Shown here: positions 10,056 to 25,890 of the stretch, in pieces
How positions within the stretch are numbered: position 1 is the first letter of the stretch
How the letters are laid out: each line of letters begins with the position of its first letter
DNA from: Patescibacteria group bacterium
GTDB lineage: Bacteria > Patescibacteriota > Gracilibacteria > BD1-5 > UBA2023
Reading direction: 5' to 3'
NCBI GenBank assembly: GCA_049301335.1
Contig: JBAQKV010000119.1
Coordinates: forward strand, 1-25,890
Length of the DNA stretch: 25,890 nucleotides
Notes under the pieces: generated by a model
What the model was told of the DNA's origin: nothing
Database searches by the model: none
Seen by the model: the letters and a program-made list of their open reading frames with translations, nothing else
Position numbers and translations under genes: made by a program

Positions 10056-10082
10056 CGAACGGTATTCGTTCACTCACTTAGG

Positions 10083-10379: not shown

Positions 10380-10388
10380 GGCCCGACC

Positions 10389-10826
10389 ATGAACGCTTCC
10401 GGAAATTTCCAATTCGCGCTCTACCTGAGGGAATCGGGACTGAGCGAACAGGAACGCTACAACTTGGAGCGTATTTTTTCGGCGCTCCTTCCGGAACGGC
10501 AGGTGGAAATCATCGACAATTGGCCAAAATACCTCGACAAGCTCCTCGAAATCAAGCATTATGCCGACGAAGAGCGCAAGCGGAACATCGCCTCGGCGTT
10601 CGACCGCATCGACAAGCTCCTCTCCGATGCCGAACTGCGCGCGCAGGAGTCGGTAAGGAAGGCCGAAGAACGACTGAAAGAACTCCAAGAGAACCGCATG
10701 GGCGCGGAAGAATTCGACCGTTTGAAAAAACTCGACGCGATGAAAAACTTCTGAAGGCCGGCGGGAGTTCCGGCAGCCGTAGAAGAACCCAAGCCTGCGT
10801 ACGACCCCCTCGCCGACTTCATATAA
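10389..10826 (+). CDS. hypothetical coiled-coil protein (145 aa); 1 UGA(Gly)
   Basis: Track ORF 10389..10754 ends at TGA 10752-10754. Reading through adds RPAGVPAAVEEPKPAYDPLADFI before TAA 10824-10826. Confidence 0.55.
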
Positions 10827-10860
10827 GCGACAATACCAAAACAAAATACCGGAACCCGAA

Positions 10861-11091
10861 ATGAAAGAGATCGAACGCGACATTCCGAACTGGAAACGGT
10901 TCCGGCAAAAGTACCCGGAAGAATCCGCGTTCGCGGACCAATTCGAAACCCGGTACGCCAAAATGGCCCCCGGAGACGCGAAATCGAGGCTTGCGAAGCT
11001 CGTGAACGTCGAGCTTTGAATCGCCGTTCTGCGCGAAACGGAAATCGACCGGGAGAGCTTTTCGAAAATGCTCTCGGCCATAGCGAAATAA
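10861..11091 (+). CDS. hypothetical small protein (76 aa); 1 UGA(Gly)
   Basis: ATG 10861 gives MKEIERDIPNWKRFRQKYPEESAFADQFETRYAKMAPGDAKSRLAKLVNVEL[TGA 11017-11019]IAVLRETEIDRESFSKMLSAIAK, with TAA at 11089-11091. Confidence 0.5.
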
Positions 11092-11093
11092 AT

Positions 11094-11121
11094 TTGACTC
11101 CGTTTCGGCTTTCCATATAGT
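11094..11121 (+). promoter_or_regulatory. sigma70-like promoter TTGACT-16-TATAGT upstream of rplS
   Basis: -35 at 11094..11099, -10 at 11116..11121, about 62 nt upstream of the rplS ATG. Confidence 0.5.
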
Positions 11122-13228: not shown

Positions 13229-13600
13229 ATGGACATCCGCCCTTCCAATTCCGAAATCGCCCGCTTCCTTCTCAAGTTCGAGAAGGACGGCATTTCGAAA
13301 AAATCGGCCGACCTCATGGCCAAAGAAGACATGCCGTACTCATCGGACCCGGACAACCGGGTCCTTTTGGAATGGTGCGTCGATAACGGGTTCGTTACCT
13401 TCGAAATCCGCAGCAAGCGTTTCGGGGACTACGAAATATCCAACCAGGGCCGACTCTTCCTCATGCAGCAGCGCTCAAACTCGCGCCGGTTGAAATATTG
13501 GATTGAAGACCATCCGTTCGCTTGGTCGGTCGTCATGCTCGTCTCCGGCTGGCTCGGCGGCGTCGTTTCGAAGTTCGCCGACAAGTTCCTTCCGTTCTAA
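13229..13600 (+). CDS. hypothetical protein (123 aa) with C-terminal transmembrane helix
   Basis: Intact ORF beginning 13 nt after dnaA, with a hydrophobic C-terminus (PFAWSVVMLVSGWLGGVV) and a TAA stop. No family recognised. Confidence 0.55.
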   Translation: MDIRPSNSEIARFLLKFEKDGISKKSADLMAKEDMPYSSDPDNRVLLEWCVDNGFVTFEIRSKRFGDYEISNQGRLFLMQQRSNSRRLKYWIEDHPFAWSVVMLVSGWLGGVVSKFADKFLPF

Positions 13601-13612
13601 GCCAATCTCTCC

Positions 13613-14128
13613 ATGAACGAAGTCGAAGGAAAAATCCTGAACATCGACGCGGAGGCGGAAATCGCCAAACTCCTCGCTCTCGGATACGCGCAGAAGGGCG
13701 ATGAAACGCTCGTAGCGAAGTTCTATAAGAATTCGTGATGAGAGACCCTCCGGCTCCGGAGCGAACACGGAGGATGGGTTTTAAACCATAAGAGAAGGAA
13801 TCCCGATTCCGGTTCGCGATTCAAATCCATGACCGAGACCGAAACGTTCGTGTCCGATCCGGACAAGATGGAAACCATCGTCCTCTCCATCGGTTTCGAA
13901 AAGGTTCGCACCGTCAGCAAACGCCGAAGGTCGTTCGTTCTCGAAGGTTCCGAAGGAAAGATCGAGATCGACGAATATCCCGGCATCCCTCCCCTGCTCG
14001 AAATCGAAGCCGAAAGCCCAGAAGCGGTGGAACGGATCGCGGAATCGCTCGGGTTCGAAGCGTCAGCGCTCGTGTCGGATTCGGTAAAAGACCTCGAAAA
14101 ACGCTACGGCATCCAATTTGGCAAATAA
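13613..14128 (+). CDS. CYTH-domain protein (class IV adenylate cyclase / triphosphatase-like), 171 aa; tandem UGA-UGA (Gly-Gly)
   Basis: ATG 13613 gives MNEVEGKILNIDAE, which contains the ExExK CYTH signature, then ...LVAKFYKNS[TGA][TGA]ETLRLRSEHGGWVLNHK.... This is in frame with track ORF 13829..14128 (...KVRTVSKRRRSFVLEGSEGKIEIDEYPGIPPLLEIEAES...). TAA stop. Confidence 0.8.
13736..13741 (+). other. two consecutive in-frame UGA codons inside the CYTH gene
   Basis: TCG TGA TGA GAG at 13733-13744, 41 codons after the ATG. CYTH-like sequence continues on both sides. Confidence 0.85.
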
Positions 14129-14150
14129 CCCGGGCGAACCGCCCAAACGA

Positions 14151-14804
14151 ATGCTCTACCTCGTCTCGACCCCCATCGGCAACCTCGAAGACATGACGTA
14201 CCGCGGCGTACGCATCCTGAAAGAAGCCGACTTCATCGCCTGCGAAGACACCCGGACCTCGGGAGTCCTCACCAAGCACTACGGCATCGACCGTCCGATG
14301 CTGTCTTTCCACTCGCACTCCGGCGTCGCGAAGATCGACAAGATCCTCGAAGCCCTCAAAGAAGGCAAAACCTGCGCGCTCATCTCCGACGCGGGAACTC
14401 CCGGCATTTCCGATCCGGCGTACGCCCTCGTGAAGGCCGCCATCGCGGAAGGAATCCCCGTCTGCCCCATCCCCGGAGCGTCCGCCGTGCTTTCCGCGCT
14501 GGTATGTTCCGGAGCGCACACGCACGATTTCCGTTTCCTCGGGTTCATGCCCATCAAGAAGGGGCGCAAGACGCTCTTCGAATCGCTCAAGACCAAGGAT
14601 TATACCGTCGTCGTCTACGAAAGCGTCCACCGCATAGACAAGACCGTCTCGGAAATCGCGGAACACTTCGGACCCGACCATCAGATCGTCATCGCCCGCG
14701 AGCTCACGAAGAAGTTCGAGGAGTTCATCCGCGGAACCGCTGCCGAGTGCGTCGAAGAGCTGAAAGTCCGTCCGAGAAAGGGCGAATTCGTCGTAATATT
14801 CTAA
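14151..14804 (+). CDS. rsmI: 16S rRNA (cytidine1402-2'-O)-methyltransferase RsmI
   Basis: MLYLVSTPIGNLEDMTYRGVRILKEADFIACEDTRTSGVLTKHYGI...ALISDAGTPGISDPAY...GASAVLSAL...VVVYESVHRIDKT...IARELTKKFEE. The ATG at 14151 is preferred over the track's TTG at 14118, which overlaps the CYTH stop. TAA stop. Confidence 0.9.
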   Translation: MLYLVSTPIGNLEDMTYRGVRILKEADFIACEDTRTSGVLTKHYGIDRPMLSFHSHSGVAKIDKILEALKEGKTCALISDAGTPGISDPAYALVKAAIAEGIPVCPIPGASAVLSALVCSGAHTHDFRFLGFMPIKKGRKTLFESLKTKDYTVVVYESVHRIDKTVSEIAEHFGPDHQIVIARELTKKFEEFIRGTAAECVEELKVRPRKGEFVVIF

Positions 14805-14818
14805 TCGCGACTCCAAAA

Positions 14819-14850
14819 CCCCGCCCCATTTGCATTGGAGCGGGGTTTTA
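14819..14850 (+). terminator. intrinsic terminator after rsmI
   Basis: aaaaCCCCGCcccatttgcattggaGCGGGGtttta: a GC stem followed by a T run. Confidence 0.55.
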
Positions 14851-14884
14851 TGATATGATTGCCCCATACCCCTAAATCCGATCC

Positions 14885-15559
14885 ATGGGTTTCGAAAAAC
14901 AAGAATCCGAAGAGGAAGAACGCCGTCTCGAGAACAAGAAAATCGAAGATGCCGACAAACTCTTGAAAGATAAGGCCGGCGACGTTAAGGAACTGGCTAC
15001 GAAAGCCGGAAACAACCTCTACGCCGACGTAAAAAAAGACAAGGAGAAGGATTTGGCCGAGCTCGCTAAAAAATCCGGTCAGGAGACGTATTCGGAAATC
15101 GCGAAAACCCGAAACGGATCGGAAGGATCCGGGAACGCCACCGAATTGGCCGAATTCGAAAAGAATGCGAAGCCGTTTATGGATGCTTATGGAACCGCCA
15201 TATCCAACGCGAACGGCATCAAGGATCCCGAAGAACGGAAAAGAACCATCGAAAAGGCATATTCGAAACTGCAAGAGGAGCTCGGGGGCGTCAAAGGTAC
15301 GCAGGAGGGCCGTGACGCGCAAGCGGACAAGAACCGCGAAAGCGACGCGAAAAAGACCGCCGAAGAAAAAGACCGCGAACGGACGTTGAAATTCTCCGAA
15401 GCCATCCTCAAAGCCGCGAAGGAGATCGAAGTCGACCGGCGTTTGGCTGAAATCGAACGTCGCGTAAAGGAACGCGCGGAACTCTCCGAACGCACCGTAC
15501 GGGAAGGACAAGAATCCGCCAAAATGGCCACTCTCGAAATCGAATCGAATCTCGCGTAA
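14885..15559 (+). CDS. hypothetical Lys/Glu-rich coiled-coil protein (224 aa)
   Basis: Intact ATG..TAA ORF with a highly charged helical composition and no signal peptide. No family recognised. It is followed by a strong terminator. Confidence 0.6.
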   Translation: MGFEKQESEEEERRLENKKIEDADKLLKDKAGDVKELATKAGNNLYADVKKDKEKDLAELAKKSGQETYSEIAKTRNGSEGSGNATELAEFEKNAKPFMDAYGTAISNANGIKDPEERKRTIEKAYSKLQEELGGVKGTQEGRDAQADKNRESDAKKTAEEKDRERTLKFSEAILKAAKEIEVDRRLAEIERRVKERAELSERTVREGQESAKMATLEIESNLA

Positions 15560-15561
15560 TC

Positions 15562-15591
15562 CCCCGCCCCACCCTTTCCGGCGGGGTTTTT
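15562..15591 (+). terminator. intrinsic terminator
   Basis: CCCCGCCccaccctttccGGCGGGGttttt: a perfect 7-bp GC stem followed by T5. Confidence 0.7.
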
Positions 15592-15640
15592 CATGACCGC
15601 ACGGTTTCGAACGAATCGCCGCAAGGAAAGGCGGGGTACG

Positions 15641-15668
15641 AAAAAAAGAGGCCGGAGCCTCTTTTTTT
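15641..15668. terminator. bidirectional terminator between convergent transcription units
   Basis: AAAAAAAGAGGCcggaGCCTCTTTTTTT is a perfect 12-bp palindromic arm pair with a U-tract available on both strands. It lies 16 nt beyond the pilC stop. Confidence 0.65.
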
Positions 15669-15683
15669 GCGGTTCGCAACGTA

Positions 15684-16835
15684 TTAGCCCGCCATCGCCT
15701 CGGAGAGGTTCATGATCGGCTGCATGATGCCGACCGCGATGAAACCGACGACGACCGCCATGACGACGATGATGACCGGTTCGATGGTCTTGTTGATGGC
15801 GTTTACGGTGGTATCGACTTCGGCGTCGTAGAAGTCCGCGATCTTGAGGATGATGGAGTCGAGGCGGGCGGTTTCTTCGCCGACCTTGATCATCTGGACG
15901 AGCATGTCCGGGAAGAGGGCGTCGTCTTCGAGGCCTTCGCCGATCTTCACTCATTTCTTGATGTCTTCGCGCAGGAGCATGATGCGCTGGCGGTAGACTT
16001 CATGGTCGACGACTTCCGAGACGATGCGCAGCGATTCGACGATCGAGATACCGGAAGAGAGGAGGTTTGAGAGTACGCGGGAGAACTTGGAGAGCACGAC
16101 CTTTTTCATGATCGGTCCGACGATCGGGAAGTGGAGCATGATGAGGTCGAAGCGGAAGTGTCCTTCCGGGGTGTTCTTCCACATCTTGACCGCGACCACG
16201 AGGATACCGATGACGATGCCCATGAGCCACCAGTAGTTCACGAACACGTCGCTGACGTTCATGAGGAACTTGGTGAGCGGCGGGAGCTTTTCCTTATCGC
16301 CGAACATCGCCACGAGCTTGGGAACGACGAGCGTCATGAGGACGCCGATACAAAGGAACATGACGATGACGATGCCCGCCGGGTAGATGAGCGCGCCTTT
16401 GAGCTTGTTGGAAATGTCGGAAACCTTTTCGACCTGGTCGGCGAGCTGGACGAGGGCGTTGTTGAGGCGTCCCGTCTTTTCGCCGGATTCGATGATCGAG
16501 CATTCCGCGTCGGAGAAGTTGCCGTCGAAGTCGCGGAGCGTTGCGGAAAGGTTCTTACCGGATTTGATTCCGGCGATCATCTTGCCGAAGAACGCCTTGG
16601 AAACCGGGTCCTTCTCCTGCCGTTCGAGGATTCCCAAAGATTTGAGAATCGGGAGGCCGGCGTTGGCCATGGTCGCGAGGAGGCGGAAGAAGACGACCTT
16701 CTGCTTGATGTTCATCTTCTGCCTCGTGAGCATCCAGAGCTCGATCTTTTGGAGAAGGCCGAGCGATTCGGAATCCGAATTGCCCTCGCCCTTGATGTCC
16801 TGGATGATGATTTCCTGATTGGAAGTCGCGTTCAT
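15684..16835 (-). CDS. pilC: type IV pilus / T2SS platform protein PilC (GspF family), 383 aa; 1 UGA(Gly)
   Basis: Track ORFs 15951..16835 and 15684..15950 are contiguous in frame across TGA 15951-15953: ...RIMLLREDIKK[TGA]VKIGEGLEDDALFPDMLVQMIKVGEETARLDSIIL.... The first GspF repeat has the matching ...MIAGIKSGKNLSATLRDFDGNFSDAECSIIESGEKTGRLNNAL. Three TM segments are present. TAA stop. Confidence 0.9.
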
Positions 16836-16849
16836 ATCGTTTTGGGGAA

Positions 16850-18112
16850 TTAGCTTTCTTTCGCCGCGGCGTAGACTTCGTCGAGGGAAGTGAGACCGTT
16901 GAGGGCCTTCATGATGCCGTCCTGTTCGAGGGAAATCATGCCCGCGTCGATGGCGGTTTCGTTAATCAGCACGCCGGAAGCCCCTTCGAGGATGAGCTTT
17001 TTGATCTCCGGGCCGATTTCCATGATTTCGTAGATACCGACGCGGCCGGAGTATCCGCTGTTTCCGCACTGGTCGCAACCGACCGGTTCGTAGAATACGG
17101 GATTCTGGAGGATTTCCATCGAAACTCGGGAAGTGAGTTCCGTTTTGTTCGTACGGGAGATGGCCTTCTTTACGGAAGCCTGCATGCGCGGTTCGAGCTT
17201 GTCGGCGGCGATGGCCTTGCGGCAGTGCGGACAAAGGCGGCGGATGAGGCGCTGCGCGATGATCGCGTTCATCGACGCCGGGAGGAGGAACGCCGGTATC
17301 CCCATGTTGAGGATACGGGTGATCGTTTCGGCGGCGGAGTTCGTATGGATGGTCGAGAGTACCAAATGTCCCGTGAGGGACGCTTCGATCGCGATGTTGA
17401 TGGTTTCACGGTCGCGGATTTCACCGACCATGATGATGTCCGGATCCTGACGGAGCGCGGTACGGAGACCGGAAGCGAAGTTGTATCCGATATCCGGGAA
17501 CATCTGGCTCTGGTTGACGCCGTCGATGACGTTTTCTACCGGGTCTTCGAGCGTCATGATGTTGACGTCCGGCTTGTTGAGGCGGGTAAGGCACGAGTAG
17601 AGCGTGGTCGACTTACCGGAACCGGTCGGTCCGGAAGTGAGGATGATGCCGTTCGGGAGCGCGATGGCGCGCTTGAGGATTTCGCCGTTCTGCCCTTCGA
17701 TACCGAGAACGCTCAAATCCGGGATCTTCTTCGATTTGTCGACGATACGCATTACGATCTTCTCGCCGGAAACGGTGGGGAGCGTCGAGACGCGGAGGTC
17801 GAGCGGCTTTTCGTCGATGGTAACGGAGATGCGCCCGTCCTGCGGCATGCGGGATTCGTCGATCTTGAGGTTCGCGAGGATCTTGTAGCGCGCTACGACC
17901 TGCGGATGGAGGAACTGCTGGTATTCGAGGATTTCTTCCAATACGCCGTCCACGCGATAGCGGATGCGGACGTAATTGGAGAGCGGTTCGATATGGATGT
18001 CAGAAGAGCGTACCGAAACCGCGGCGCTGATAATCAGGTTACAGATCTGCTGGGCGTTGTCGCCCTTGTAGATCTCCTCTTTCAGGCGTTCGATGTAGGA
18101 GTTCGTTTGCAT
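16850..18112 (-). CDS. pilB: type IV pilus assembly ATPase PilB (GspE family, short form without N-terminal domain), 420 aa
   Basis: Walker A GPTGSGKST, Asp box and Walker B ...LRQDPDIIMVGEIRD, His box LTGHLVLSTIHTN, and a tetracysteine motif CPHC...CDQC. TAA stop, no UGA. Confidence 0.9.
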   Translation of the reverse strand: MQTNSYIERLKEEIYKGDNAQQICNLIISAAVSVRSSDIHIEPLSNYVRIRYRVDGVLEEILEYQQFLHPQVVARYKILANLKIDESRMPQDGRISVTIDEKPLDLRVSTLPTVSGEKIVMRIVDKSKKIPDLSVLGIEGQNGEILKRAIALPNGIILTSGPTGSGKSTTLYSCLTRLNKPDVNIMTLEDPVENVIDGVNQSQMFPDIGYNFASGLRTALRQDPDIIMVGEIRDRETINIAIEASLTGHLVLSTIHTNSAAETITRILNMGIPAFLLPASMNAIIAQRLIRRLCPHCRKAIAADKLEPRMQASVKKAISRTNKTELTSRVSMEILQNPVFYEPVGCDQCGNSGYSGRVGIYEIMEIGPEIKKLILEGASGVLINETAIDAGMISLEQDGIMKALNGLTSLDEVYAAAKES

Positions 18113-18130
18113 GTCGTGATGATGACGGGC

Positions 18131-19381
18131 TTATTTTGCCGCTTTGGCGTTGGTCTTCTTAGGAGCGCGTTCGAGAATCGCTTTCTGCTTGAGGTATCCG
18201 GTTTCGATGGTTTTCGCGGAAGCGTAGACGGAGAAGACCTTGTCGAATTCGGTGGAGAGGTCGGTGACGGTAGCCGCCTTGACCATCTCCTGGCTGCGGG
18301 CGTCGAGGGCGGTGATTTCGCCAACGAGCGACTTGAGGGCGGAAACGGCGGTGACCCCGGCGTCCGACTCGCATACGTCGGACTTCTTTCCGTTGCAGGA
18401 TTTCGAGAGCGCGTCGACGTCGATCTTGAGTTTGCGAACCTTTTCGCTGACGAGGGTGCGGATTTCGACGAGCGAAGAGTAGGTGCGGCCCTTCACGTAG
18501 AAGGAAAGGGAGAGGTCTACGCGGTTCTTGGCTTCCGGATCGTCGAACGACGACTCGGAGCTGAGATTGTCGATCGTCATGAGAAGGTTGTTCAAGTCCG
18601 AGAGCGTCGGATCCTTCTTGTTCTTAGAGGTCGGATAGAGCGCGACGAGCTTGCCGTCTTCGATCTTCACCTTGCCGGAATTCTGGATGTAGTCGACGAG
18701 CTTGAGAATTTGGGAATTCTGCCCTTCGATCTGGAAGTCCACTTTGAAGGTTCCGATATTGACGATGGAACTCTTCGAATTGTCGAACGAGACCTTGTCG
18801 ATACCGAGCTGGCCGAAGGTGTTGACCTTGAACTGCTTGAAGACGTCTTCCTCGATATGCCTTACGAAGCTCGCCATGGTGATGCGGTCCTTGTCGAAGC
18901 CGAGTTCGTCGCCCGGAAGCGATTCGGTGAAGGTCGGGATGACGTTACCGATGATTTCGCGCTTTTGGGCGATCATGTCGTCATAGCGCCCGATGGATTC
19001 CTTGCCGACTTCCTGATTGAGCCATTCGTAGTAGGTTCCCGAATATTTCGGATCTTTCTCCATGGCGGAAGCGATCTTGTCCTTATCGGCGAAGATCGGG
19101 TTCTTGGCGGCCTTTCCTCCGATTCCCGAGAGGGCGGCGGCGAATTCGGCGGGGGTCATTCCGTCGTTCCGAAGTTTTTCAATCTTGGAAATGAGGTCGT
19201 TCGCCTGATCGGTCTTCGCGGAAATCTCCTCATACTGAGGCATGACGAAGGCGAAAACGACGACGAGTACGATGCCTACTACGAAGCCGTTGAGGACCAT
19301 CGAACGGGCGAGGCGTTCTTTGCGTTTCTTTTCTTGTATCGCGAAGTTTTCTTCGTCGATGTCGGGTGCTTGCTGGCTCAT
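18131..19381 (-). CDS. bitopic membrane protein (416 aa) in the T4P operon; PilO-like layout (N-terminal TM + coiled coil), function unassigned
   Basis: Intact ORF. It has the TM helix MVLNGFVVGIVLVVVFAFVMP followed by a coiled-coil segment. It starts 2 nt after the upstream stop, and its own stop lies 18 nt before pilB. TAA stop. Confidence 0.7.
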   Translation of the reverse strand: MSQQAPDIDEENFAIQEKKRKERLARSMVLNGFVVGIVLVVVFAFVMPQYEEISAKTDQANDLISKIEKLRNDGMTPAEFAAALSGIGGKAAKNPIFADKDKIASAMEKDPKYSGTYYEWLNQEVGKESIGRYDDMIAQKREIIGNVIPTFTESLPGDELGFDKDRITMASFVRHIEEDVFKQFKVNTFGQLGIDKVSFDNSKSSIVNIGTFKVDFQIEGQNSQILKLVDYIQNSGKVKIEDGKLVALYPTSKNKKDPTLSDLNNLLMTIDNLSSESSFDDPEAKNRVDLSLSFYVKGRTYSSLVEIRTLVSEKVRKLKIDVDALSKSCNGKKSDVCESDAGVTAVSALKSLVGEITALDARSQEMVKAATVTDLSTEFDKVFSVYASAKTIETGYLKQKAILERAPKKTNAKAAK

Positions 19382-19383
19382 GA

Positions 19384-20271
19384 TTACGGGCGGTTACCGG
19401 TAGCGGAGGGAACGTAGCGGAGATTCAGGGAGAGTTTCGTTACGGTCGAGAACGTCGATCGGATACCGACGTCGGCGGTGGAATATTTGGAAATGTCGAG
19501 GGTCTTGGGAGGATTGAGGATGCGGAATTCGCTGCCGTCCAAACGATCGAGGAGCGCGATGGCGGTAATGCGCGAAGAACGCGATTCCTTGTAGGCGCTG
19601 TCGTTCAACGATCCTCCGTAGGTTTCGCAATCCACGGTGAATTCGCCCTTTTCGTTGAATTTATAGCGGGAGCAGCTGATATCTTCTCCGTGGTAATCGG
19701 ATTTGGCGACGATATCCTGAAATTCGCCCACGACTTTGCCGAACGCGATACGCGAATCGCCCGTGCGTTCCTTGATGAACTGAACCTCGGGAGAATTGAT
19801 GGCGTCCCCCGCTTCGAGACGTTTCGGCACGAGTACCAAGAGGTTGTTCGCCATGGTGGATTCGACCTGTTTGAGTTCTTCGGTCTTGTCGGCCATAATC
19901 TGGGTCGGCATTTTGCAATCGGTATTCTCGAATCCGTCGATGCCGAAAGAGAGGTAGTCGCAAACCGGGAGGTTTTCGAGGAATCCCGGAGTATCGAGGT
20001 CGCGGATCGTCGAATCGATGCCGAGAATGACGACGGCCACGAGGGAAACCTTCATGGCGACGTCGAGGATCTTCGCCCCGATTTCGTGCGGATCCTTCTT
20101 TTGTGCGGTCTGGACCCCCGGCGATGGAGCGTCCTTGAAGAAGTTTTCGCCGAGCCCCTGGAAAATATCGTCGCCCATCGTGAGCGGCGAAGGAACGTTA
20201 CCACCCGGGGAAGCCTGGTTTGGAGCCGCTCACTGGGTCGGGTCTTCCTTTTTGTTTTGAAAAAAAGCCAT
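19384..20271 (-). CDS. bitopic membrane protein (295 aa), first gene of the T4P operon; 1 UGA(Gly)
   Basis: ATG 20271-20269 gives MAFFQNKKEDPTQ[TGA 20230-20232]AAPNQASPGGNVPSPLT, which joins track ORF 19384..20178 (MGDDIF...). It has a single TM (KVSLVAVVILGI) and a Cys-containing extracytoplasmic domain. The alternative start is ATG 20178. TAA stop. Confidence 0.65.
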
Positions 20272-20305
20272 ACGTGTTCGGCACGGAATTAAAAGTACCG
20301 AAGCG

Positions 20306-20334
20306 AGTATAGCAGGTAATTTTTTTCTTTGCAA
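20306..20334 (-). promoter_or_regulatory. sigma70-like promoter TTGCAA-17-TATACT for the T4P operon
   Basis: On the minus strand the -35 is at 20334..20329 and the -10 at 20311..20306. The predicted leader to ATG 20271 is about 28 nt. Confidence 0.45.
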
Positions 20335-20368
20335 AAAGGGCAGCCCCATAATGGCTTGCCCTTTTTGC
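20331..20368 (-). terminator. long hairpin terminator after dinG
   Basis: GCAAAAAGGGCAGCCccataatGGCtTGCCCTTTTTGC: about 15 bp of stem with one bulge, and a U-rich 3' arm on either strand. It starts 15 nt after the TAA at 20383-20385. Confidence 0.55.
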
Positions 20369-20382
20369 TCTTTGCGTAGCGA

Positions 20383-23127
20383 TTAATCGGCGAACGGAAC
20401 TTCGGCCGACCCGTCTTTGGCTCCGGCGTTCGACGCGGCGCGTTTTTTTTCGAGGAGTTCGGCGAACGAATCCATCGAGCCCTTACGGATGCGGATTCCT
20501 TCGGGAAACGCCCCGGGAACCGCCCTTCCCCATGACGAATTCACGCGGGGGTCGAGAATCACGACGACTCCGCGGTCTTCCTTCGTGCGGATGAGACGGC
20601 CGATTCCTTGGCGGAGTTTCAGGAGCATCTGCGGAACCGAATACTCGGCGAACGGGTCGCGGAACAGTTTGGAACGGGCCATGACGACGGGATCCGTCGG
20701 TACGGCGAACGGAAACTTGTGGATGAAAAGCATTTCGAGGTCTTTCCCCGGAATGTCGACGCCTTCCCAAAAGCTGTCGGTCCCGAAAAGCGCGCTGTGG
20801 TCGGCATATTTCTTAAACTGTTCGATCATCTTGTGCTTCCCTCCGGACATGCCCTGCGACAGAAGTTGGATGCCTTCCTTTTTCAGAACGGGATTGACTT
20901 GGAGGTACGCCTCCTTGATGCTCGCGAACGACGTAAAAAGGCAGAGCGTGCGTCCGCCCATGGCGGAAATCGCGCGCGCCACGAACGCGTTGACCCTGCG
21001 GCGGTCGAATTCGCTCTTCATGTCTCCGAGGTCGTCCGGAAGGAAAACCGTCGCCTGTTGGTGGTAGTCGAAATCGGAATCGAGGATATGGAACGTGAAA
21101 TCCTGGAGTCCGAGGGTCTTTTTCAGAAAATCGAAATGTCCGCCGATGGCGAGCGTCGCGGAGGTGAGCACGACCGAATCGAGCTTGCTCCAAAGACGTT
21201 CCTTGAGCACGCCGGAAACGTCGAGCGGCGCGAGGGCGAGCTTGCATTCGCCGTTATTCTTGAGGGATACCGTCTTTATGAGATCCGTTCGCGACGCCGA
21301 GAAGAATTCCTCGAGAAGTTTGGCATACCCAGAAAGGTCGGAGAGTTGCGCGCTGAAGGCTTCGAAAAGCTTATCCGGAGCGGCTTCGAGACGTCCGGTG
21401 AGGTCTTTGAGCTTTTCGAAGACCGAAGAAATCACCGAAGGCATTCCGGAAATCCCTTCGGAAGTGAAGAAATCCTGGGTCACGAGCACGTCGGTGGAAC
21501 GTCCGCCCGCGTACCCTCCCCTGCCGGAATCGTTCATTCCGGCCTTCACGAAGGCGTAGCGTTCCGCGAAATCGAGCGCCATTCCGTACGACAGTACGAA
21601 AGATTCCGAAATCTCCTTCATTTCGGGGAAGAGGAATTTTTCAGCTCCCGATTGGCGGTTGTGGCGGCGGATATGGGCTTCAATGCGGTTGAACGTCTTT
21701 TCGATGTCGGCGAGCAGGAGTTCGCACGTGAGCGCGTCGGTGGCGGCGGCTTCGAGGTTATGGGCCTCGTCGACGATGAGGCGCGAAAGCTTCCCTACCG
21801 TACCGGTCGCGTCGTCGGCGAGTTCGGTAAGGATGAGGGCGTGGTTCACGAGAACGACGTCGGCCGTTTTGGCGGCTTCGCGGGCGGCGTAGAGCGGTTC
21901 TTTTTTGCGGTACGGGTTGTCCGGCGAAAGCACGCGGGCGTCTCCGGCGTGGATTTCCGCGAGGAATTCGTAATCCTTTCCGTAGAACGAGACTTCGTCG
22001 AGTTCGCCGGTCTTGCTTTCGGCGAGCAGGATGGAAACCTTAGCGAAGAAAAGCTTGGCTTCTTCCGGAAAATCTTCGCGATCGGCGAATTCGGCGAACT
22101 TCAAAAGGCTCACGTAGTTGGAGCGCCCCTTGAGTTTGGCGAAGCGGAACGTATCGAGCCCGTACGGACGGAGGATATCACGTAGACGCGGAACGTCCTT
22201 GTAGGCGATCTGGTCCTGGAGGGTCTTGGTATTGGTCGAAACGTGGACGCGCGCACCGTCGAGGATGGCGGACGCGACGGCCGGAACCATGTACGCGAAG
22301 GTTTTTCCGATACCGGTGGGCGCTTCGATGGCCACGAGGGATTTCTTATCGACGGCGTCGCGTACGATGCCGGCCATTTTGGCTTGTTCGGGACGTTTTT
22401 CAAGGCCGGAGTTACGTTCGAGGATGGAAACGGCGTCCGGCGCGTCGAACGGGCGTTCCGGGGCGGGTGCCTCGACGTATTCCGAAAGCCCGGCCTCGAT
22501 CTTCTCGAAAAGCTTGCGGGCGTCGGTCGGCCCCTCGTCGCCCATGGCCCATCGGACCGTCGTGGGGAACGAGGAATTGGGCGCCGAGTGGTCGCGCAGG
22601 AAGCGGTAAATTTCGCGGACCGTACCTTGCGATTCCTTGATGCGGCGTACGGCCTCACGGAAAATGGCGACGGTGGCGCGGGTGTCGGAGAGAGCGCGGT
22701 GGGCGCCTTCGTGGAAATACCCGGACGCGTCGGCGAGATTGGAAAGGTTCATGCTCTTCTCGTGGCGGAACGCGAGCTGGGCGACCTTGAAACTGTCGAT
22801 GACGACGCGGTTCGAAAAATCGAACCCGTACGAGGAAAGGAACGCCGTATCGAAATCGGCGTTATGCGCGAGCACCGGGTCGTCGCCGAAGAAATCCGCC
22901 ACCTTGTACCGGATGTCGCCGAAACCCGGGGCCTCGGAAACGTCTTCGTCGGTAATGCCGGTGATGTTCTCAACTTCTTCCGAAATCGAAATACCCGGAT
23001 TCACGAGGCTGGAAAACTCTTCGACCGTGCCGTCTTCGTTGAACCGCACCATCGCGATTTCGATGATGGCGTCTGATTTTGGGTCGAGTCCGGTGGTCTC
23101 GAGGTCGAAGGCTACGATGGAAGGCAT
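20383..23127 (-). CDS. dinG: DnaQ-like 3'-5' exonuclease fused to DinG-family DEAH helicase (914 aa)
   Basis: The real start is MPSIVAFDLETTGL (ATG 23127-23125). DEDDh motifs: DLETTG, HNADFDTAFL, HRALSDTRAT. Helicase motif I is APTGIGKT and motif II is DEAHNL. The C-terminal RecA-like domain carries ...SATL..., ALFGTDSFWEGVDIPG and LRQGIGRLIRT. I see no Fe-S cysteine cluster between motifs I and II, which matches the Firmicute-type architecture. TAA stop, no UGA in 914 codons. Confidence 0.9.
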   Translation of the reverse strand: MPSIVAFDLETTGLDPKSDAIIEIAMVRFNEDGTVEEFSSLVNPGISISEEVENITGITDEDVSEAPGFGDIRYKVADFFGDDPVLAHNADFDTAFLSSYGFDFSNRVVIDSFKVAQLAFRHEKSMNLSNLADASGYFHEGAHRALSDTRATVAIFREAVRRIKESQGTVREIYRFLRDHSAPNSSFPTTVRWAMGDEGPTDARKLFEKIEAGLSEYVEAPAPERPFDAPDAVSILERNSGLEKRPEQAKMAGIVRDAVDKKSLVAIEAPTGIGKTFAYMVPAVASAILDGARVHVSTNTKTLQDQIAYKDVPRLRDILRPYGLDTFRFAKLKGRSNYVSLLKFAEFADREDFPEEAKLFFAKVSILLAESKTGELDEVSFYGKDYEFLAEIHAGDARVLSPDNPYRKKEPLYAAREAAKTADVVLVNHALILTELADDATGTVGKLSRLIVDEAHNLEAAATDALTCELLLADIEKTFNRIEAHIRRHNRQSGAEKFLFPEMKEISESFVLSYGMALDFAERYAFVKAGMNDSGRGGYAGGRSTDVLVTQDFFTSEGISGMPSVISSVFEKLKDLTGRLEAAPDKLFEAFSAQLSDLSGYAKLLEEFFSASRTDLIKTVSLKNNGECKLALAPLDVSGVLKERLWSKLDSVVLTSATLAIGGHFDFLKKTLGLQDFTFHILDSDFDYHQQATVFLPDDLGDMKSEFDRRRVNAFVARAISAMGGRTLCLFTSFASIKEAYLQVNPVLKKEGIQLLSQGMSGGKHKMIEQFKKYADHSALFGTDSFWEGVDIPGKDLEMLFIHKFPFAVPTDPVVMARSKLFRDPFAEYSVPQMLLKLRQGIGRLIRTKEDRGVVVILDPRVNSSWGRAVPGAFPEGIRIRKGSMDSFAELLEKKRAASNAGAKDGSAEVPFAD

Positions 23128-23259
23128 TGGCGCGGGTTTTTGAACCTGCCGATTGTATCCGGAAGAGCTTGGAAAGCCAGACCGAAAGGCATCTGAGTTT
23201 CGACTTTCGCACGAAGGGAAAATGCGGTACGATACGGACGTAGAGATAACCGTCTTTTT

Positions 23260-24441
23260 ATGAAAATCCGCGAATTGAAAAAGCCCGTGCTTTCCGCCGT
23301 GGCGTTTTTCTCCACCGTCGGAATCCTTTCCGTAGGCTATTCGGCCTTCGTTACGAACTATCCCGCAACCGCTACGGCCGGGACCTCCCAATTGTCGGCG
23401 ACCGAGTGGAACAAGATGGTCGCAGCGCTCCAAGCGCTCGATACGAACCTTTCGAACTTCCAATTCTCCAGCGGAAACGTGGGAATCGGCTGAGCGACCG
23501 ATCCTTTGGCAAAACTTACCGTAACCTCCGTCGGGGACGGCGGCGCGTGATTGGTATTGCTGAAGAAATACGACAATACCAACGCCATAGCCAACGGCAT
23601 CGGAGGATTGCGTGCGCGCGGAACGCTCGCTTCTCCGTCCGCGCTCCAGACGAACGACCGGTATTTCAGTCTCATAGGCGCCGCGCATGACGGAACGGCG
23701 TTCAGCAACGACGCGGCGATCCAGATGTACGCGGGCGAAAACCATACCGCCACCGCACACGGCTCGTTCATGTCTTTCGAAACCGCCGCCAACGGAGAAT
23801 CGGTACGAAGCGAAAGGATACGCATCGATTCGCTCGGATGAGTCCTCATGGGATACACGTCTTCGTACCCGTTCACGGCCCAGGGTTGGGGAAATTTCAA
23901 CCTCCTCGTGAACGGCACTACGAATAAGAACGGGGTCGGCATCGACGCTACCGGAGGAGGCGCTTCGGCGGTTCCCCTCGTATTGCGAACGCCGAGCACT
24001 ACGCTCGAATCGTTCTATTACAATACGACCGGCGTAGGAAACATCACGACCAACGGTTCCTCGACTTCGTACAACACCACGTCGGACTACCGGCTGAAAG
24101 AAAACGTCGTCGACCTTACCGGCGCGCTCGACCGCATTTCCAAACTCGGCGTCCACCGGTTCGATTACAAAACCAATCCCGAACGCACCGTCGACGGATT
24201 CCTCGCTCACGAGTTGCAGACGGTCGTACCGGAAGCCGTTACCGGAACCAAGGACGCCGTGGATGAAAACGGCAAACCGGTCTACCAGCAGGTCGATTAT
24301 TCGAAGGTCGTCCCCCTCCTTTCCGCCGGCATTAAGGAACTCAAGGCCGAAGTCGATTTGAGAAACGCCGAAATGGCCGAACAAAAAGCGGAAATCGAAG
24401 CCCTCAAAGCGGAGATTTCCAGACTTGAGAACGCGAAATAA
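23260..24441 (+). CDS. membrane-anchored tail-fibre-like protein with C-terminal intramolecular chaperone (peptidase S74-type) domain, 393 aa; 3 UGA(Gly)
   Basis: Track ORFs 23260..23493, 23551..23841 and 23848..24441 share one frame and are joined through TGA at 23491-23493, 23548-23550 and 23839-23841. The N-terminal anchor is MKIRELKKPVLSAVAFFSTVGILSVGYSAFV. GNVGIG-type fibre motifs are present. The C-terminus TTSDYRLKENVVDLTGALDRISKLGVHRFDYKTNPERTVDGFLAHELQTVVPEAV...VDYSKVVPLLSAGIKELKAEVDL plus a coiled coil matches the endosialidase/tail-spike chaperone domain (SDxRxK). TAA stop. Confidence 0.8.
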
Positions 24442-24450
24442 TCGGAAGTA

Positions 24451-25890
24451 CTATTCCGAATCGAAGAGATGGAAGTACTGGAGGTTTTTCCAATCGGACA
24501 GCGCCGCTTCGCACTCAGGCGAGTTTCTGGAAATCGACCCCGGAATCGGCAAGCACCCCGAAGCCTCGGAACCCGCATGGAAGACGGCGTCCTTCGGCGA
24601 AAGCCCGGCAGCGCCGAAAACGACGCCGGAGAAATTCGCGGCGCGGACTTTTCCGTATTCGCGGGTCGGCGCGGCCGCGCTGAAGTTGTCCCAAACGAGG
24701 AACGGCGTCGTATGCATCAAGAGGTATTCCTCTTGCGACCAAGCGCTTTCGTCGAGGGTTTTCAGATATCCGGTTTTCGCGTACGTCCGGTACGCGTCAC
24801 CCAAGATGCCCATGTGGTCGCCAAAGAACGCCACTACGGTGGGGCGTCCGGATTTTTTCAATTCCTCTGCCAAACGTCAGAGCTCGCGGTCGGCGTCATG
24901 GATTCCTTGGACGTAATTTTTCAGAGTCAGTTTGTCGTCTTCGGAAAGGGACGGCGCTTCGACGTCGATTTCGTGATCGGCGTATTTGTCGCCCTCGTAG
25001 GAAAAATGGTTCTCCATCGAGATAGCGAAAACGAAAGCCGGCTTCCCCGGTTCGCTTCGGCCCTTCAATTCGGAAAGGATCGTATCGGTCAGCACCGAAT
25101 CGGCCACGAATTTCCCCTTGATGGGAGCATTCGGAATGTCTTCGAGCCCAACGAACTTTTCGAATCCGAGGAGCGGATAGGCTCAAGAACGGTTAAAGAA
25201 CGACTTGTGGTAGGTATGCACGGCCTCGGCGGAGTATCCGGCGGAACGGAACTCGAACGGCACGGACGGGATCGGATTCCTCAGGTACTGCTGGTACGGG
25301 ATGCTGCCGTTCGGGAGCCAGGCGATCGGAGTACCGGCAAGCACCTCGAATTCCACGAGCGCGGTCTTGCCTCAGAACATGGGCGAAACGAAATCCCCTC
25401 CCCCTTTTTCCGAGCGAAGCTTGCGGAAATTGGGAATCGGGTCTTTCGAAAATCTCACTCCGGGGAGTTTGGTAGGATCCCAGAACGATTCGCTCAGGAT
25501 GAGCACGACGTCGGGGCGGACCGATCCGGAAGAATCCGGCGTTTCAAAATTCGACGCGGCGAGTTTTTCCACTTTCGCACGATCGTAGCCTTCCGGCTTT
25601 TTGACGAACGCGTTGCCGAGATTGGTAAAGAACCCCCCGACGAAGCCGTTGTCCGCGTAGTTTTCCATCTGCCGCCAGGAATAGTCTTCGGGCTTGAGCG
25701 CCGCGGCAGTTTGAATTACGGTGAGCGTACCGTAGGCATTGGTAAAAACCGCGGCATGGAAAAGGGCGAGAGCGGCAAAAAGGGCGATTCTGAAATTCGA
25801 GGGGCGGCCGGCGAATCGAAACGGAGAGTGCGAAACCTTGCGAACTTTTCCGTCAGCTTTGCCGAGCAAAAAGAAAAACGCGACCGACAA
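24451..25890 (-). CDS. LTA-synthase-like / sulfatase-family (alkaline phosphatase superfamily) membrane enzyme, 5' end beyond right edge; 3 UGA(Gly)
   Basis: Track ORFs 25372..25890, 24877..25107 and 24451..24873, plus an unlisted 25186..25371 segment, are all in one frame. They are joined through TGA at 25372-25374, 25183-25185 and 24877-24879. Motifs: RPDVVLILSESFWDP, SPMF[TGA]GKTALVEFEVLAG, FVFAISMENHFSY, PTVVAFFGDHMG. Stop is TAG 24451-24453. Confidence 0.75.

What the first reader, a model, noticed from the sequence alone, without database searches (positions are those of the whole stretch)
23260..24441. Stand-alone phage-tail-fibre-like protein with self-cleaving chaperone domain, membrane-anchored and outside any prophage: candidate host-attachment fibre
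The 393-aa ORF is visible only after reading three UGAs. It has an N-terminal signal-anchor, fibre-type GNVGIG motifs and a Gly/Thr/Asn-rich beta region. Its C-terminal ~119 aa (nt 24082-24438) begin TT-SDYRLKEN, placing a Ser and a Lys five residues apart. That is the same arrangement as the Ser/Lys dyad of the endosialidase/tail-spike intramolecular chaperone (peptidase S74), which drives trimerisation and then cleaves itself off. No capsid, terminase, integrase or other tail genes flank it. Its neighbours are dinG and a cell-envelope sulfatase-family enzyme, and a type IV pilus operon lies 3 kb away. In an organism from a clade of presumed epibionts or parasites, a cellular trimeric fibre could plausibly be an adhesin for host cells.
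Basis: partly seen in the sequence, partly recalled or inferred. Interest (0 to 1): 0.65.

Follow-up and report, generated by a model that had tools for sequence, protein, structure and literature searches.

The report
Membrane-anchored phage-like fibre of a CPR bacterium
A tiny, probably host-dependent bacterium that reads UGA as glycine carries in its own chromosome, not in a prophage, a short fibre protein built from a conserved membrane anchor and a phage-tail-fibre-type shaft with a self-cleaving chaperone; it resembles the prey-binding fibres of Bdellovibrio and is a testable candidate for how these uncultured bacteria grip other cells.

Summary
The + strand ORF 23260-24441 encodes 393 aa once three TGAs are read as Gly, and code 25 is shown window-wide. 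Residues 275-328 match Peptidase_S74 (43 bits; cutoff 22) with an invariant SDxxxK dyad, and the modelled fold matches known intramolecular chaperones. The context is cellular: DinG, an LtaS-type sulfatase, FtsZ/FtsA and a type IV pilus operon surround it, and four related genomes keep the gene in this slot. New findings: (1) the shaft (aa 101-202) is homologous to the beta-helix of Bdellovibrio MAT prey-adhesion fibres; (2) the N-terminal 70 aa form a rare, highly conserved anchor module (126 clusters in 1.84 billion proteins; no phage match); related genomes join it to different shafts and tips, in tandem arrays of up to four genes, with or without S74; (3) the gene is under purifying selection (dN/dS 0.21), but its central cassette (aa 71-240) exists as two alleles (63-65% identical) whose distribution contradicts the DinG tree. 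It is best read as a new, short, membrane-anchored variant of the cellular trimeric fibre adhesins known from predators. Trimerisation, cleavage, surface display and host binding are inferred, not shown.

The parts
23260..24441 (+). Fibre gene: 393 codons plus TAA, read with TGA=Gly (code 25)
   Evidence: PHROG tail-fibre alignments run across all three TGAs. Orthologues start at the same Met. dN/dS is 0.21 against L002.
23491..23493 (+). In-frame TGA, codon 78 (Gly)
   Evidence: Aligns with GGA (Gly) in L002 and with G in L088 and L089.
23551..23553 (+). In-frame TGA, codon 98 (Gly)
   Evidence: Aligns with G in L088 ('GGAGLVLL') and lies in the variable cassette relative to L002.
23842..23844 (+). 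In-frame TGA, codon 195 (Gly)
   Evidence: Aligns with G in L088 and with T in L002 and L089. More distant homologues have N/S/D in a GN(V/L) turn.
23284..23352 (+). Hydrophobic transmembrane/signal-anchor segment (aa 9-31) of the conserved anchor module
   Evidence: The Kyte-Doolittle 19-residue maximum is 1.77 at aa 13-31. Many positions are invariant in 17 homologues: L11, A13, A15, F16, F17, L23-S-V-G-Y-S-A29. AF2 predicts a helix at aa 4-32, with low confidence.
23260..23469 (+). Anchor module (aa 1-70): TM segment, PATATAG linker and the conserved helix 'SATEWNKMVAALQALDTNLSNF'
   Evidence: 126 clusters in 1.84 billion proteins, nearly always at the N-terminus. No PHROG hit and no viral contig match. 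Shared by 11 genes in 6 genomes that carry different distal parts.
23470..23979 (+). Variable central cassette (aa 71-240), dimorphic among four syntenic genomes
   Evidence: dS is 1.33, against 0.19-0.38 in the flanking housekeeping and pilus genes. Cassettes are 63-65% identical between types and 86-93% within a type, and their distribution is discordant with the DinG tree.
23560..23865 (+). Beta-helix shaft segment (aa 101-202) homologous to Bdellovibrio MAT fibres
   Evidence: phmmer against the PDB: 8OML/8ON4 (Bd1334) E=1.5e-6 and 3.9e-6; 8OL4/8ONF (Bd2439) E=2.5e-5. The entries were identified and the matched parts described as trimeric beta-helix in PMC10769870.
24082..24099 (+). SDYRLK: predicted catalytic Ser275 (cleavage site) and Lys280 dyad
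   Evidence: S275, D276, Y277, R278 and K280 are invariant in 74 homologues. The motif matches the SDxxxK motif of S74 MATs.
24082..24438 (+). C-terminal intramolecular chaperone / Peptidase_S74 domain (aa 275-393), ending in a long helix (aa ~351-392)
   Evidence: Pfam PF13884, 43 bits. AF2 pLDDT is 96-99. Foldseek: 7DC3 MyRF ICA probability 1.00, then 3GUD and 3GW6.
23128..23259 (.). 132-bp divergent intergenic region between dinG and the fibre gene (presumed promoters)
   Evidence: Gene coordinates. No consensus promoter was found here, so the promoter role is inferred only.
20383..23127 (-). DinG-type exonuclease-helicase, the conserved left flank of the locus
   Evidence: Pfam RNase_T, DEAD, DEAD_2 and Helicase_C_2. 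96-98.5% identical in L002, L088 and L089 at the same position.
24451..25890 (-). LtaS-type sulfatase-family membrane enzyme (runs off the window), the conserved right flank
   Evidence: Pfam Sulfatase E=2.6e-37. The same position is occupied in L002, L088 and L089, followed by FtsZ, FtsA and trigger factor.

Best explanation
The gene encodes a chromosomal, functional, cell-surface fibre of a code-25 Gracilibacteria-type (CPR) bacterium.

Shown: the reading frame, code 25, the S74 domain with its Ser/Lys dyad and fold, shaft homology to Bdellovibrio MAT fibres, a conserved N-terminal hydrophobic anchor module, the cellular context, purifying selection and cassette exchange.

Inferred mechanism: the N-terminal segment targets the protein to the Sec pathway and stays in the cytoplasmic membrane as an N-in/C-out anchor. 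Outside the cell, the C-terminal chaperone domains of three chains associate and nucleate folding of an intertwined trimeric beta-helix shaft in the C-to-N direction. Ser275, activated by Lys280, then cleaves the chain, releasing a 13-kDa chaperone and leaving a 28-kDa-per-chain mature fibre roughly 10-17 nm long, whose freshly exposed distal end and shaft surface bind a ligand.

The family shares one conserved base with swapped shafts and tips. It is multi-copy in relatives, its central cassette is exchanged between lineages, and its nearest characterised relatives are prey adhesins. The most likely ligand is therefore a surface structure (probably a glycan) of the host or prey cell on which such bacteria depend.
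For: S74 assignment: Pfam hit above the gathering score and an invariant SDxxxK. The chaperone fold matches 7DC3, 3GUD and 3GW6.

Shaft: homologous to Bd1334 and Bd2439 beta-helices. Those proteins are surface-displayed adhesins, and S74 self-cleavage was demonstrated for Bd3182.

Anchor: conserved far beyond what a signal peptide needs, rare and absent from phages.

Family: 11 members in 6 genomes, with S74 or non-S74 tips and tandem arrays of up to 4 genes. CTHRC1_C and Gly-rich tips occur in more distant members.

Context: cellular in all loci.

Selection and exchange: dN/dS 0.21 with intact orthologues. The dimorphic cassette is discordant with the DinG tree.

Code 25.

Lifestyle: code-25 Gracilibacteria and Absconditabacteria are described as host-dependent or predatory (PMC11452946).
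Against: There is no experimental evidence for expression, export, trimerisation, cleavage or binding.

The monomer AF2 model of the fibre part is weak (pLDDT 45-68 for aa 196-245), and the anchor model has low confidence (pLDDT 58). No multimer prediction was available.

Whether the hydrophobic segment is retained or cleaved is unresolved (a possible cleavage site lies near 'SVG-YS').

The mature fibre is very short compared with MATs (about 250 versus about 1000 aa) and may not clear the cell wall or S-layer.

No recognisable lectin or tip domain follows the shaft, so no ligand can be proposed.

The host of this organism is unknown. Cassette dimorphism could equally reflect pressure from phages or predators that use the fibre as a receptor.
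Confidence: 0.6

Rival explanations
1. The protein is a surface or wall-associated trimeric fibre whose job is not host attachment. Possible roles are envelope or S-layer organisation, cell-cell cohesion among kin, or a decoy or shield against phages. On this view the cassette dimorphism is driven by phages or predators that use the fibre as their receptor, not by host range.
For: The structural evidence for a surface fibre is the same as for the best explanation. Dimorphic, recombining surface cassettes are the classic signature of phage- or predator-driven negative frequency-dependent selection. The fibre is short, about 250 aa mature. The neighbours include cell-envelope enzymes: an LtaS-type sulfatase here, and PBP1, LytR and Peptidase_S8 at L006.
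Against: The nearest characterised homologues are prey adhesins. A family with one conserved base and many swapped tips, including a CTHRC1_C tip, looks like a recognition repertoire rather than a structural element.
Confidence: 0.2
2. The hydrophobic N-terminus is a cleaved signal peptide, and the protein is released as a soluble trimer. It would act as a secreted lectin or tailspike-like glycan-degrading enzyme rather than as an anchored fibre.
For: S74 domains are also attached to enzymatic tailspikes such as endosialidases (3GW6 among the fold hits). A small-residue motif 'LSVG|YS' follows the hydrophobic core. MAT proteins use a cleaved signal peptide.
Against: The hydrophobic stretch is about 20 residues long with a KD score of 1.77, and it is nearly invariant across 17 homologues and all paralogues. 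That is unusual for a cleavable signal peptide. No enzymatic domain was detected by Pfam or NCBIfam. The mature part is only about 200 aa of shaft.
Confidence: 0.13
3. The gene is a remnant or cargo of a prophage, tailocin or contractile injection system, that is, a true virion tail fibre gene stranded in the chromosome.
For: There are strong PHROG tail-fibre matches (best 1.8e-45). The tip plus S74 part is 55-64% identical to proteins on at least 595 viral contigs.
Against: No capsid, terminase, integrase, tail or baseplate gene is present in the 25.9-kb window or in 8.5 kb beyond it in the syntenic genome. The flanks are DinG, sulfatase, FtsZ, FtsA, Tig, T4P genes and DnaA. The locus is conserved in four genomes. 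The N-terminus is a membrane anchor with no phage counterpart, not a virion-attachment domain. The gene is under purifying selection.
Confidence: 0.03
4. The ORF is a pseudogene or an artefact: three nonsense TGAs interrupt a dead gene, and the real gene is the 1356-codon minus-strand ORF.
For: Under code 11 the + strand ORF is broken three times, while the minus strand is stop-free from 20383 to 24450.
Against: TGA=Gly is shown window-wide and in relatives. The minus-strand extension upstream of DinG's Met is Arg-rich junk, and DinG starts at 23127 in all four genomes. Homology is continuous across the TGAs. dN/dS is 0.21.
Confidence: 0.02

Closest known systems
S74-group MAT (mosaic adhesive trimer) fibres of Bdellovibrio bacteriovorus, e.g. 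Bd3182 (Caulton et al. 2024, Nat Microbiol, PMC10769870)
   Same: Both are chromosomally encoded, non-phage fibres of a bacterium that lives on other bacteria. Both have a phage-like trimeric beta-helix shaft; the candidate's aa 101-202 match the Bd1334 and Bd2439 shafts at E about 1e-6. Both end in a C-terminal S74 chaperone with SDxxxK. Both families have a conserved N-terminal base with swapped shafts and tips, include S74 and non-S74 members, and occur as several copies per genome.
   Different: The candidate has no room for the ~130-aa beta-rich N-terminal MAT domain. It has instead a conserved TM helix and a short helix (about 70 aa in all). It is 393 aa, against about 600-1900 aa for MATs. 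The organism is a presumably monoderm CPR bacterium using code 25, not a diderm. The capping-loop motif is GNVGIGxxxPxxKL rather than V-G-G/N-pi-x-x-P-x-x-x-L. Patescibacteria are not among the MAT-like proteins listed in that paper.
Phage tail fibres and tailspikes with a C-terminal intramolecular chaperone (K1F endosialidase 3GW6, GA-1 neck appendage 3GUD, T5 pb1; Pfam PF13884, MEROPS S74)
   Same: The chaperone/protease domain, the Ser-Lys dyad five residues apart, and the long terminal helix are shared. The tip plus S74 part is 55-64% identical to many viral proteins.
   Different: The gene is not in a phage genome. The N-terminus is a membrane anchor instead of a virion-attachment domain. 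The locus is conserved between chromosomes.
MyRF (myelin regulatory factor) ICA domain, 7DC3
   Same: It is the best fold match (Foldseek probability 1.00, 27% identity) and a sequence match. It is another cellular, membrane-associated protein that uses the S74 domain for trimerisation-dependent self-cleavage.
   Different: MyRF is a eukaryotic transcription factor. Its TM segment lies C-terminal to the ICA domain, and cleavage releases the N-terminal part into the cytoplasm. There is no fibre shaft homology beyond the capping motif.
'Tail fiber domain-containing protein' of Candidatus Gracilibacteria (P0004, GCA_023230505.1), as named by NCBI
   Same: The overall architecture and size are the same (344 aa): TM anchor, GNIGIG, shaft and the same S74 subtype. 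Identity is 39% over 99% of the query. The context is cellular, between SSB and GroES.
   Different: The anchor is divergent and the locus is different. P0004 has only an automatic name, with no functional study behind it.

Membership tests
Peptidase_S74 / intramolecular chaperone (ICA) domain | Sequence match to PF13884 above the curated gathering score | tested here: met
   43 bits against a cutoff of 22, E=5.5e-11, aa 275-328 covering profile positions 1-58 of 58.
Peptidase_S74 / intramolecular chaperone (ICA) domain | Catalytic Ser and Lys five residues apart (SDxxxK) at the start of the domain | tested here: met
   S275 and K280 in SDYRLK. S275, D276, Y277, R278 and K280 are invariant in 74 aligned homologues. 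The motif is as defined in PMC10769870.
Peptidase_S74 / intramolecular chaperone (ICA) domain | The fold of the chaperone domain, with a terminal long helix | tested here: met
   AF2 pLDDT is 96-99 over aa ~285-393. Foldseek: 7DC3 probability 1.00 with TM(target) 0.62, 3GUD probability 1.00, 3GW6 probability 0.97.
Peptidase_S74 / intramolecular chaperone (ICA) domain | Trimerisation-dependent autoproteolysis that releases the domain | not testable with these tools
   This needs recombinant expression with an S275A control, or intact-mass proteomics. No multimer predictor was available.
MAT (mosaic adhesive trimer) superfamily, Bdellovibrio | Trimeric beta-helical fibre shaft related to the MAT shafts | tested here: met
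   aa 101-202 match 8OML/8ON4 (Bd1334) and 8OL4/8ONF (Bd2439) at E=1.5e-6 to 2.5e-5. The matched regions are the beta-helices. The trimeric state itself is inferred.
MAT (mosaic adhesive trimer) superfamily, Bdellovibrio | Conserved beta-rich N-terminal domain of ~130 aa directly after the signal peptide (present in all 21 MATs) | tested here: not met
   Only about 40 residues lie between the hydrophobic segment (ending at aa 31) and the first fibre motif (aa 72). They are predicted as a linker plus one helix. Direct comparison with a MAT N-domain sequence was not possible because none was on hand.
MAT (mosaic adhesive trimer) superfamily, Bdellovibrio | Mosaic family: conserved base, diversified tips (S74 and non-S74), several copies per genome | tested here: met
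   Four tandem genes at L006 plus one at L002 in the same genome, and two tandem genes in L005. Of 11 members, 8 have S74 and 3 do not. CTHRC1_C and Gly_rich_2 tips occur among more distant members. The copy number in the window's own genome is unknown.
MAT (mosaic adhesive trimer) superfamily, Bdellovibrio | Display on the cell surface and binding of prey epitopes | not testable with these tools
   This requires microscopy or fractionation and glycan or cell binding assays.
Phage / prophage virion tail fibre | Encoded within a phage structural module (tail, baseplate, capsid, terminase) or an integrated element | tested here: not met
   All window genes were scanned and none is phage-like. 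The syntenic extension shows FtsZ, FtsA and Tig. Other family loci are cellular as well.
Phage / prophage virion tail fibre | N-terminal domain that docks onto the virion, shared with phage fibres | tested here: not met
   aa 1-77 give no PHROG hit at E<=1. No viral contig encodes the anchor.
Code-25 (UGA=Gly) lineage: Gracilibacteria / Absconditabacteria | In-frame TGA in conserved genes, corresponding to Gly in relatives | tested here: met
   No tRNA gene lies in the window to confirm a tRNA-Gly(UCA).

The most novel reading that the evidence does not exclude
The anchor-module fibres are the host-range determinants of code-25 CPR epibionts or predators. A lineage-specific membrane anchor has repeatedly captured shaft and tip modules from phage receptor-binding proteins, possibly from phages of the very bacteria these cells attach to. 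The cell would then recognise the same surface receptors as those phages. The two cassette alleles exchanged between lineages would correspond to different host or receptor specificities.
Probability: 0.2. Interest if true: 0.8.

Novelty: new variant of a known kind. Interest (0 to 1): 0.5.

Why it matters
How Gracilibacteria, Absconditabacteria and their relatives recognise and hold on to other cells is unknown. None of the Gracilibacteria is cultured, and the two Gracilibacteria papers consulted attribute attachment to type IV pili, VCBS proteins and a PTD-repeat protein, without mentioning S74 fibres.

This gene family offers a concrete and experimentally tractable candidate. The protein is small (393 aa) and predicted to self-process. 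Its soluble part could be expressed and tested for trimerisation, cleavage at Ser275, and binding to glycan arrays or to cells from the same community.

The conserved anchor gives a specific marker, about 126 clusters, for finding all such fibres in metagenomes. Code-11 gene calling currently chops them into fragments and hides them. The dimorphic cassette gives a natural experiment for linking alleles to co-occurring hosts.

More broadly, the finding extends the idea of cellular fibres built from phage tail-fibre parts. That idea is established for Bdellovibrio, a diderm with long fibres and a soluble N-domain. Here it reaches the CPR radiation in a different anchoring solution: a direct membrane anchor and a fibre about 2.5 times shorter.

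Tried and rejected
- Minus-strand ORF 20383-24450 as the real gene: rejected. Only 20383-23127 is DinG; the rest is antisense junk.
- TGA=Trp (code 4): rejected. No TGA-to-TGG correspondence was found, against 5 of 10 to GGN and TGA on invariant Gly positions.
- Exact look-ups of the window's DinG and PilB to find the source contig: not on record. P0128 was also not on record.
- NCBIfam: no hit.
- Close relatives in viral contigs using the whole protein: none. With a profile, only the tip plus S74 part is shared.
The TGA-free fragment aa 196-393 and the anchor aa 1-77 were modelled instead. The fibre part and the anchor came out with low confidence, so no conclusion about the shaft fold rests on them.
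- Diversity-generating retroelement as the source of cassette variation: no template-like repeat was found in 19000-25890, and no RT domain appeared in any scanned window protein.
- Promoter and terminator scans: nothing above the chance expectation.
- Rfam and tRNA scans of the window: nothing.
- Type IV pilin-like nature of the N-terminus: rejected by inspection. There is no G|FxxxE prepilin motif, and the conserved Gly-Tyr follows the hydrophobic stretch rather than preceding it.
- Functional linkage to type IV pili: a pilus operon is nearby here, and a PilM_2-like gene lies 1.1 kb from the L004 member, but there is none at L001 or L006. This is left as a lead only.
Full report
**1. The observation**

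The + strand ORF 23260-24441 is real: 393 sense codons and a TAA, with in-frame TGAs at codons 78, 98 and 195. A rival reading had to be removed first. On the minus strand, a 1356-codon ORF free of any stop spans 20383-24450 and covers the whole gene. Its translation is a recognisable DinG only from 'MPSIVAFDLETTG' (first base 23127) downstream. The 441 codons upstream are Arg-rich antisense junk. Pfam finds RNase_T, DEAD, DEAD_2 and Helicase_C_2 in the 914-aa product, and all four related genomes start DinG at the same Met.

**2. Genetic code**

In-frame TGAs occur in several unrelated genes of the window: PilC, CYTH, the sulfatase-family gene and a 1624-aa DUF1800/DUF1501 protein. I compared the window with a syntenic relative, L002, which is about 90% identical at the nucleotide level over 13305-25890. 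Six TGAs are conserved in place. Of the ten that vary, five correspond to GGA/GGC and none to TGG. In paralogues, TGA falls on the invariant Gly residues of the GNVGIG motif ('gGNIGIg', 'TgVGIg'). The organism therefore uses code 25 (UGA=Gly). That code is the trademark of Gracilibacteria and Absconditabacteria, which form a clade with Peregrinibacteria (PMC11452946). The nearest genome is labelled 'Candidatus Peribacteria'.

**3. What the protein is made of**

(a) *Anchor module, aa 1-70.* It has a basic N-terminus and a hydrophobic stretch of about 20 residues (Kyte-Doolittle 19-residue maximum 1.77 at aa 13-31). A PATATAG linker and the helix 'SATEWNKMVAALQALDTNLSNF' follow. A low-confidence AF2 model gives a helix at aa 4-32, a linker, and a helix at aa 47-66. 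The module is strikingly conserved, including the membrane segment: L11, A13, A15, F16, F17 and L23-SVGYSA-29 are invariant in 17 homologues. It is also rare. A profile search of 1.84 billion representative proteins finds 126 hits at E<=1e-3, almost always at the N-terminus, and many are short fragments because code-11 gene calling truncated them. It has no PHROG match at E<=1, and no viral contig encodes it.

(b) *Shaft, aa ~71-274.* This region is rich in Gly, Thr and Asn and begins with GNVGIG. PHROG tail-fibre profiles align across it and across all three TGAs (phrog_19195 at 1.8e-45 over aa 85-338; phrog_1980 over aa 43-386). The best solved-structure relatives of aa 101-202 are not phage proteins. 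They are 8OML/8ON4 (Bd1334) and 8OL4/8ONF (Bd2439), at E=1.5e-6 to 2.5e-5. These are the trimeric beta-helix shafts of the *Bdellovibrio bacteriovorus* 'mosaic adhesive trimer' (MAT) fibres (PMC10769870).

(c) *Chaperone, aa 275-393.* Pfam Peptidase_S74 scores 43 bits against a cutoff of 22. The motif S275-D-Y-R-L-K280 is invariant in 74 homologues. An AF2 model has pLDDT 96-99 in this region. Its best fold matches are the MyRF ICA domain 7DC3 (probability 1.00), the phage GA-1 chaperone 3GUD and the K1F endosialidase chaperone 3GW6. The domain ends in a helix of about 40 residues, as those chaperones do.

**4. Context: cellular, not phage**

The window encodes the following genes:
- a PAS sensor
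- the DUF1800/DUF1501 protein
- a membrane protein
- an RNase HII-QueH fusion
- L19
- DnaA
- a CYTH protein
- RsmI
- PilC and PilB, plus two unannotated genes
- DinG
- the fibre
- an LtaS-type sulfatase-family enzyme

The syntenic genomes continue to the right with FtsZ, FtsA and trigger factor. The DinG | fibre | sulfatase arrangement is kept in four genomes: the window, L002, L088 and L089. More distant family members also sit among housekeeping genes. P0004 lies between SSB and GroES in a Gracilibacteria MAG. A tandem array lies after rpoB/rpoC and next to Peptidase_S8, PBP1 and LytR. L004 lies between Obg, a PilM_2-like gene and TsaD.

**5. A family with a conserved base and swapped distal parts**

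The fetched loci hold 11 anchor-bearing genes in 6 genomes, each 237-393 aa. Eight end in S74, of two subtypes (SDYRLK...DGFLAHE and SDxRxK...GVIAQE). Three lack S74 and instead have Cys-containing tips with no Pfam match. The genome that holds L002 also has four such genes in tandem about 450 kb away. L005 has two in tandem. Among 45 longer anchor-bearing database proteins, 6 have S74, one has a CTHRC1_C tip and one a Gly_rich_2 domain. By contrast, the tip plus S74 segment of the candidate (aa ~242-366) is 55-64% identical to proteins on at least 595 viral contigs. The protein is therefore a chimera of a lineage-specific cellular anchor and phage-type fibre parts.

**6. Evolution at the locus**

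Between the window and L002, the neighbouring housekeeping and pilus proteins are 94-99.6% identical (dS 0.19-0.38, dN/dS 0.007-0.095). The fibre is 79.6% identical. The sulfatase (89%) and an unannotated charged protein (59%) also diverge. Overall the fibre has dS 0.67, dN 0.138 and dN/dS 0.21, so it is a functional gene and not a pseudogene. The divergence is concentrated in aa 71-240 (dS 1.33, dN 0.283). The S74 part is conserved (dS 0.33, dN/dS 0.09).

With four genomes, the cassette turns out to be dimorphic. The window and L088 share type A (86.5% identical). L002 and L089 share type B (92.9%). Between the types, identity is 63-65%. The DinG tree pairs the window with L002 (92.4% nucleotide identity) and L088 with L089 (90.8%), and the C-terminal part of the fibre agrees with DinG. 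Each sister lineage thus carries both cassette types. That pattern means recombination or long-maintained alleles, as is typical of exposed recognition surfaces. No template repeat suggests a diversity-generating retroelement.

**7. Mechanism**

What is shown:
- the reading frame and the genetic code
- the domain composition
- the catalytic dyad and the chaperone fold
- the shaft homology to MAT fibres
- the anchor conservation
- the cellular context
- the purifying selection and the cassette exchange

What is inferred:
- The anchor inserts N-in/C-out.
- Three chaperone domains associate outside the membrane and template an intertwined trimeric shaft.
- Ser275/Lys280 then cleave the chain, releasing a 13.2-kDa chaperone and leaving a 28.2-kDa-per-chain fibre.
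- Length estimate: Bd3182 rises about 60 Å per 135 residues. On that scale the shaft would be about 9 nm, and the helix and linker would add up to about 8 nm more.
- The exposed end and shaft then bind a ligand.

In Bd3182, S74 self-cleavage at the catalytic Ser was demonstrated, and MATs are surface-displayed and bind prey glycans. That precedent, the family's modular design and the host-dependent or predatory biology described for the code-25 lineages make host or prey attachment the most likely role. I put that specific role at somewhat under one half, and the 'exported, self-processed trimeric surface fibre' part at about 0.8.

**8. Comparison with what is known, and novelty**

The S74/ICA domain membership tests were met, apart from the biochemical cleavage test, which cannot be done with these tools. 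The protein works like an S74-group MAT fibre, but it fails one defining MAT feature. All 21 MATs have a beta-rich N-terminal domain of about 130 aa after a signal peptide. Here only about 40 residues separate the hydrophobic segment from the shaft.

It is not a virion tail fibre, because both the context test and the N-terminal domain test fail. NCBI already names a relative 'tail fiber domain-containing protein'. The MAT paper lists MAT-like proteins in many predatory lineages but none in Patescibacteria. The two Gracilibacteria papers consulted do not mention such proteins.

I therefore rate it a new variant of a known kind. It is of moderate interest mainly because it offers a testable handle on host recognition in an uncultured, recoded lineage, and because code-11 annotation systematically hides the family.

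Noticed in passing
window 20383-24450, minus strand: This is a 1356-codon ORF with no stop codon, even under code 11. Only 20383-23127 is DinG. The upstream 441 codons are the antisense shadow of the fibre gene. Code-11 gene callers could over-extend DinG or miss the fibre gene.
   Followed up: yes
window 14876-15559, + strand: This Lys/Glu-rich protein of about 225 aa has no Pfam hit. It is the most divergent gene between the window and L002 (59% aa identity, dS 1.3, dN/dS 0.23), although it sits between nearly identical RsmI and PilC genes. It is a second fast-evolving or replaced gene.
   Followed up: partly
L006 9041-12998 (contig CAYZVC010000001.1, about 603.7-607.7 kb): Four tandem genes share the same N-terminal anchor. 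Two have S74 ends of a different subtype and two have Cys-containing tips without S74. They lie downstream of rpoB/rpoC and next to two Peptidase_S8 genes, PBP1 and LytR.
   Followed up: partly
window 23470-23979, with L002, L088 and L089: The fibre's central cassette occurs as two alleles: type A in the window and L088, type B in L002 and L089. Their distribution contradicts the DinG tree (window with L002, L088 with L089).
   Followed up: yes
L002 (record title) and window: The nearest genome is labelled 'Candidatus Peribacteria' (phylum Peregrinibacteriota in NCBI taxonomy), yet it clearly reads TGA as Gly. The paper consulted ascribes code 25 to Gracilibacteria and Absconditabacteria. Either the label is loose or code 25 extends into what is being called Peribacteria.
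   Followed up: partly
window 1423-6297, minus strand: This gene encodes a 1624-aa secreted protein that fuses DUF1800 and DUF1501, which from my own knowledge (not checked here) are usually two adjacent genes. It has a long Ser/Thr/Gly-rich C-terminal part and three in-frame TGAs.
   Followed up: no
window 8061-9272, minus strand: This is a single ORF that fuses RNase HII (aa 7-204) with the epoxyqueuosine reductase QueH (aa 216-387).
   Followed up: no
window 13601-14128, + strand (CYTH gene): Two consecutive TGA codons occur ('KNSggETLRL'). L002 has TGA-GGC at the same place, a neat internal confirmation that TGA=Gly.
   Followed up: yes
L004 12168-13373 and 2628-3452: In a 41%-GC Gracilibacteria MAG, a PilM_2-like gene lies 1.1 kb downstream of the fibre family member. 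A further TM-anchored Gly-rich protein has 'YAINYP' after its TM, like the family's 'SNYP'. This could point to a link with type IV pili or to a wider set of proteins using a similar anchor.
   Followed up: no
window 9357-11120: This stretch of about 1.7 kb lies just upstream of rplS-dnaA and has no convincing gene. Two small ORFs gave no Pfam hit. It may contain the replication origin or small unannotated genes.
   Followed up: no
window 18131-20382, minus strand: Two genes (420 and about 321 aa) lie between pilB and dinG. They have no Pfam hit but are 95-96% conserved against L002. They are probably lineage-specific pilus assembly components.
   Followed up: no
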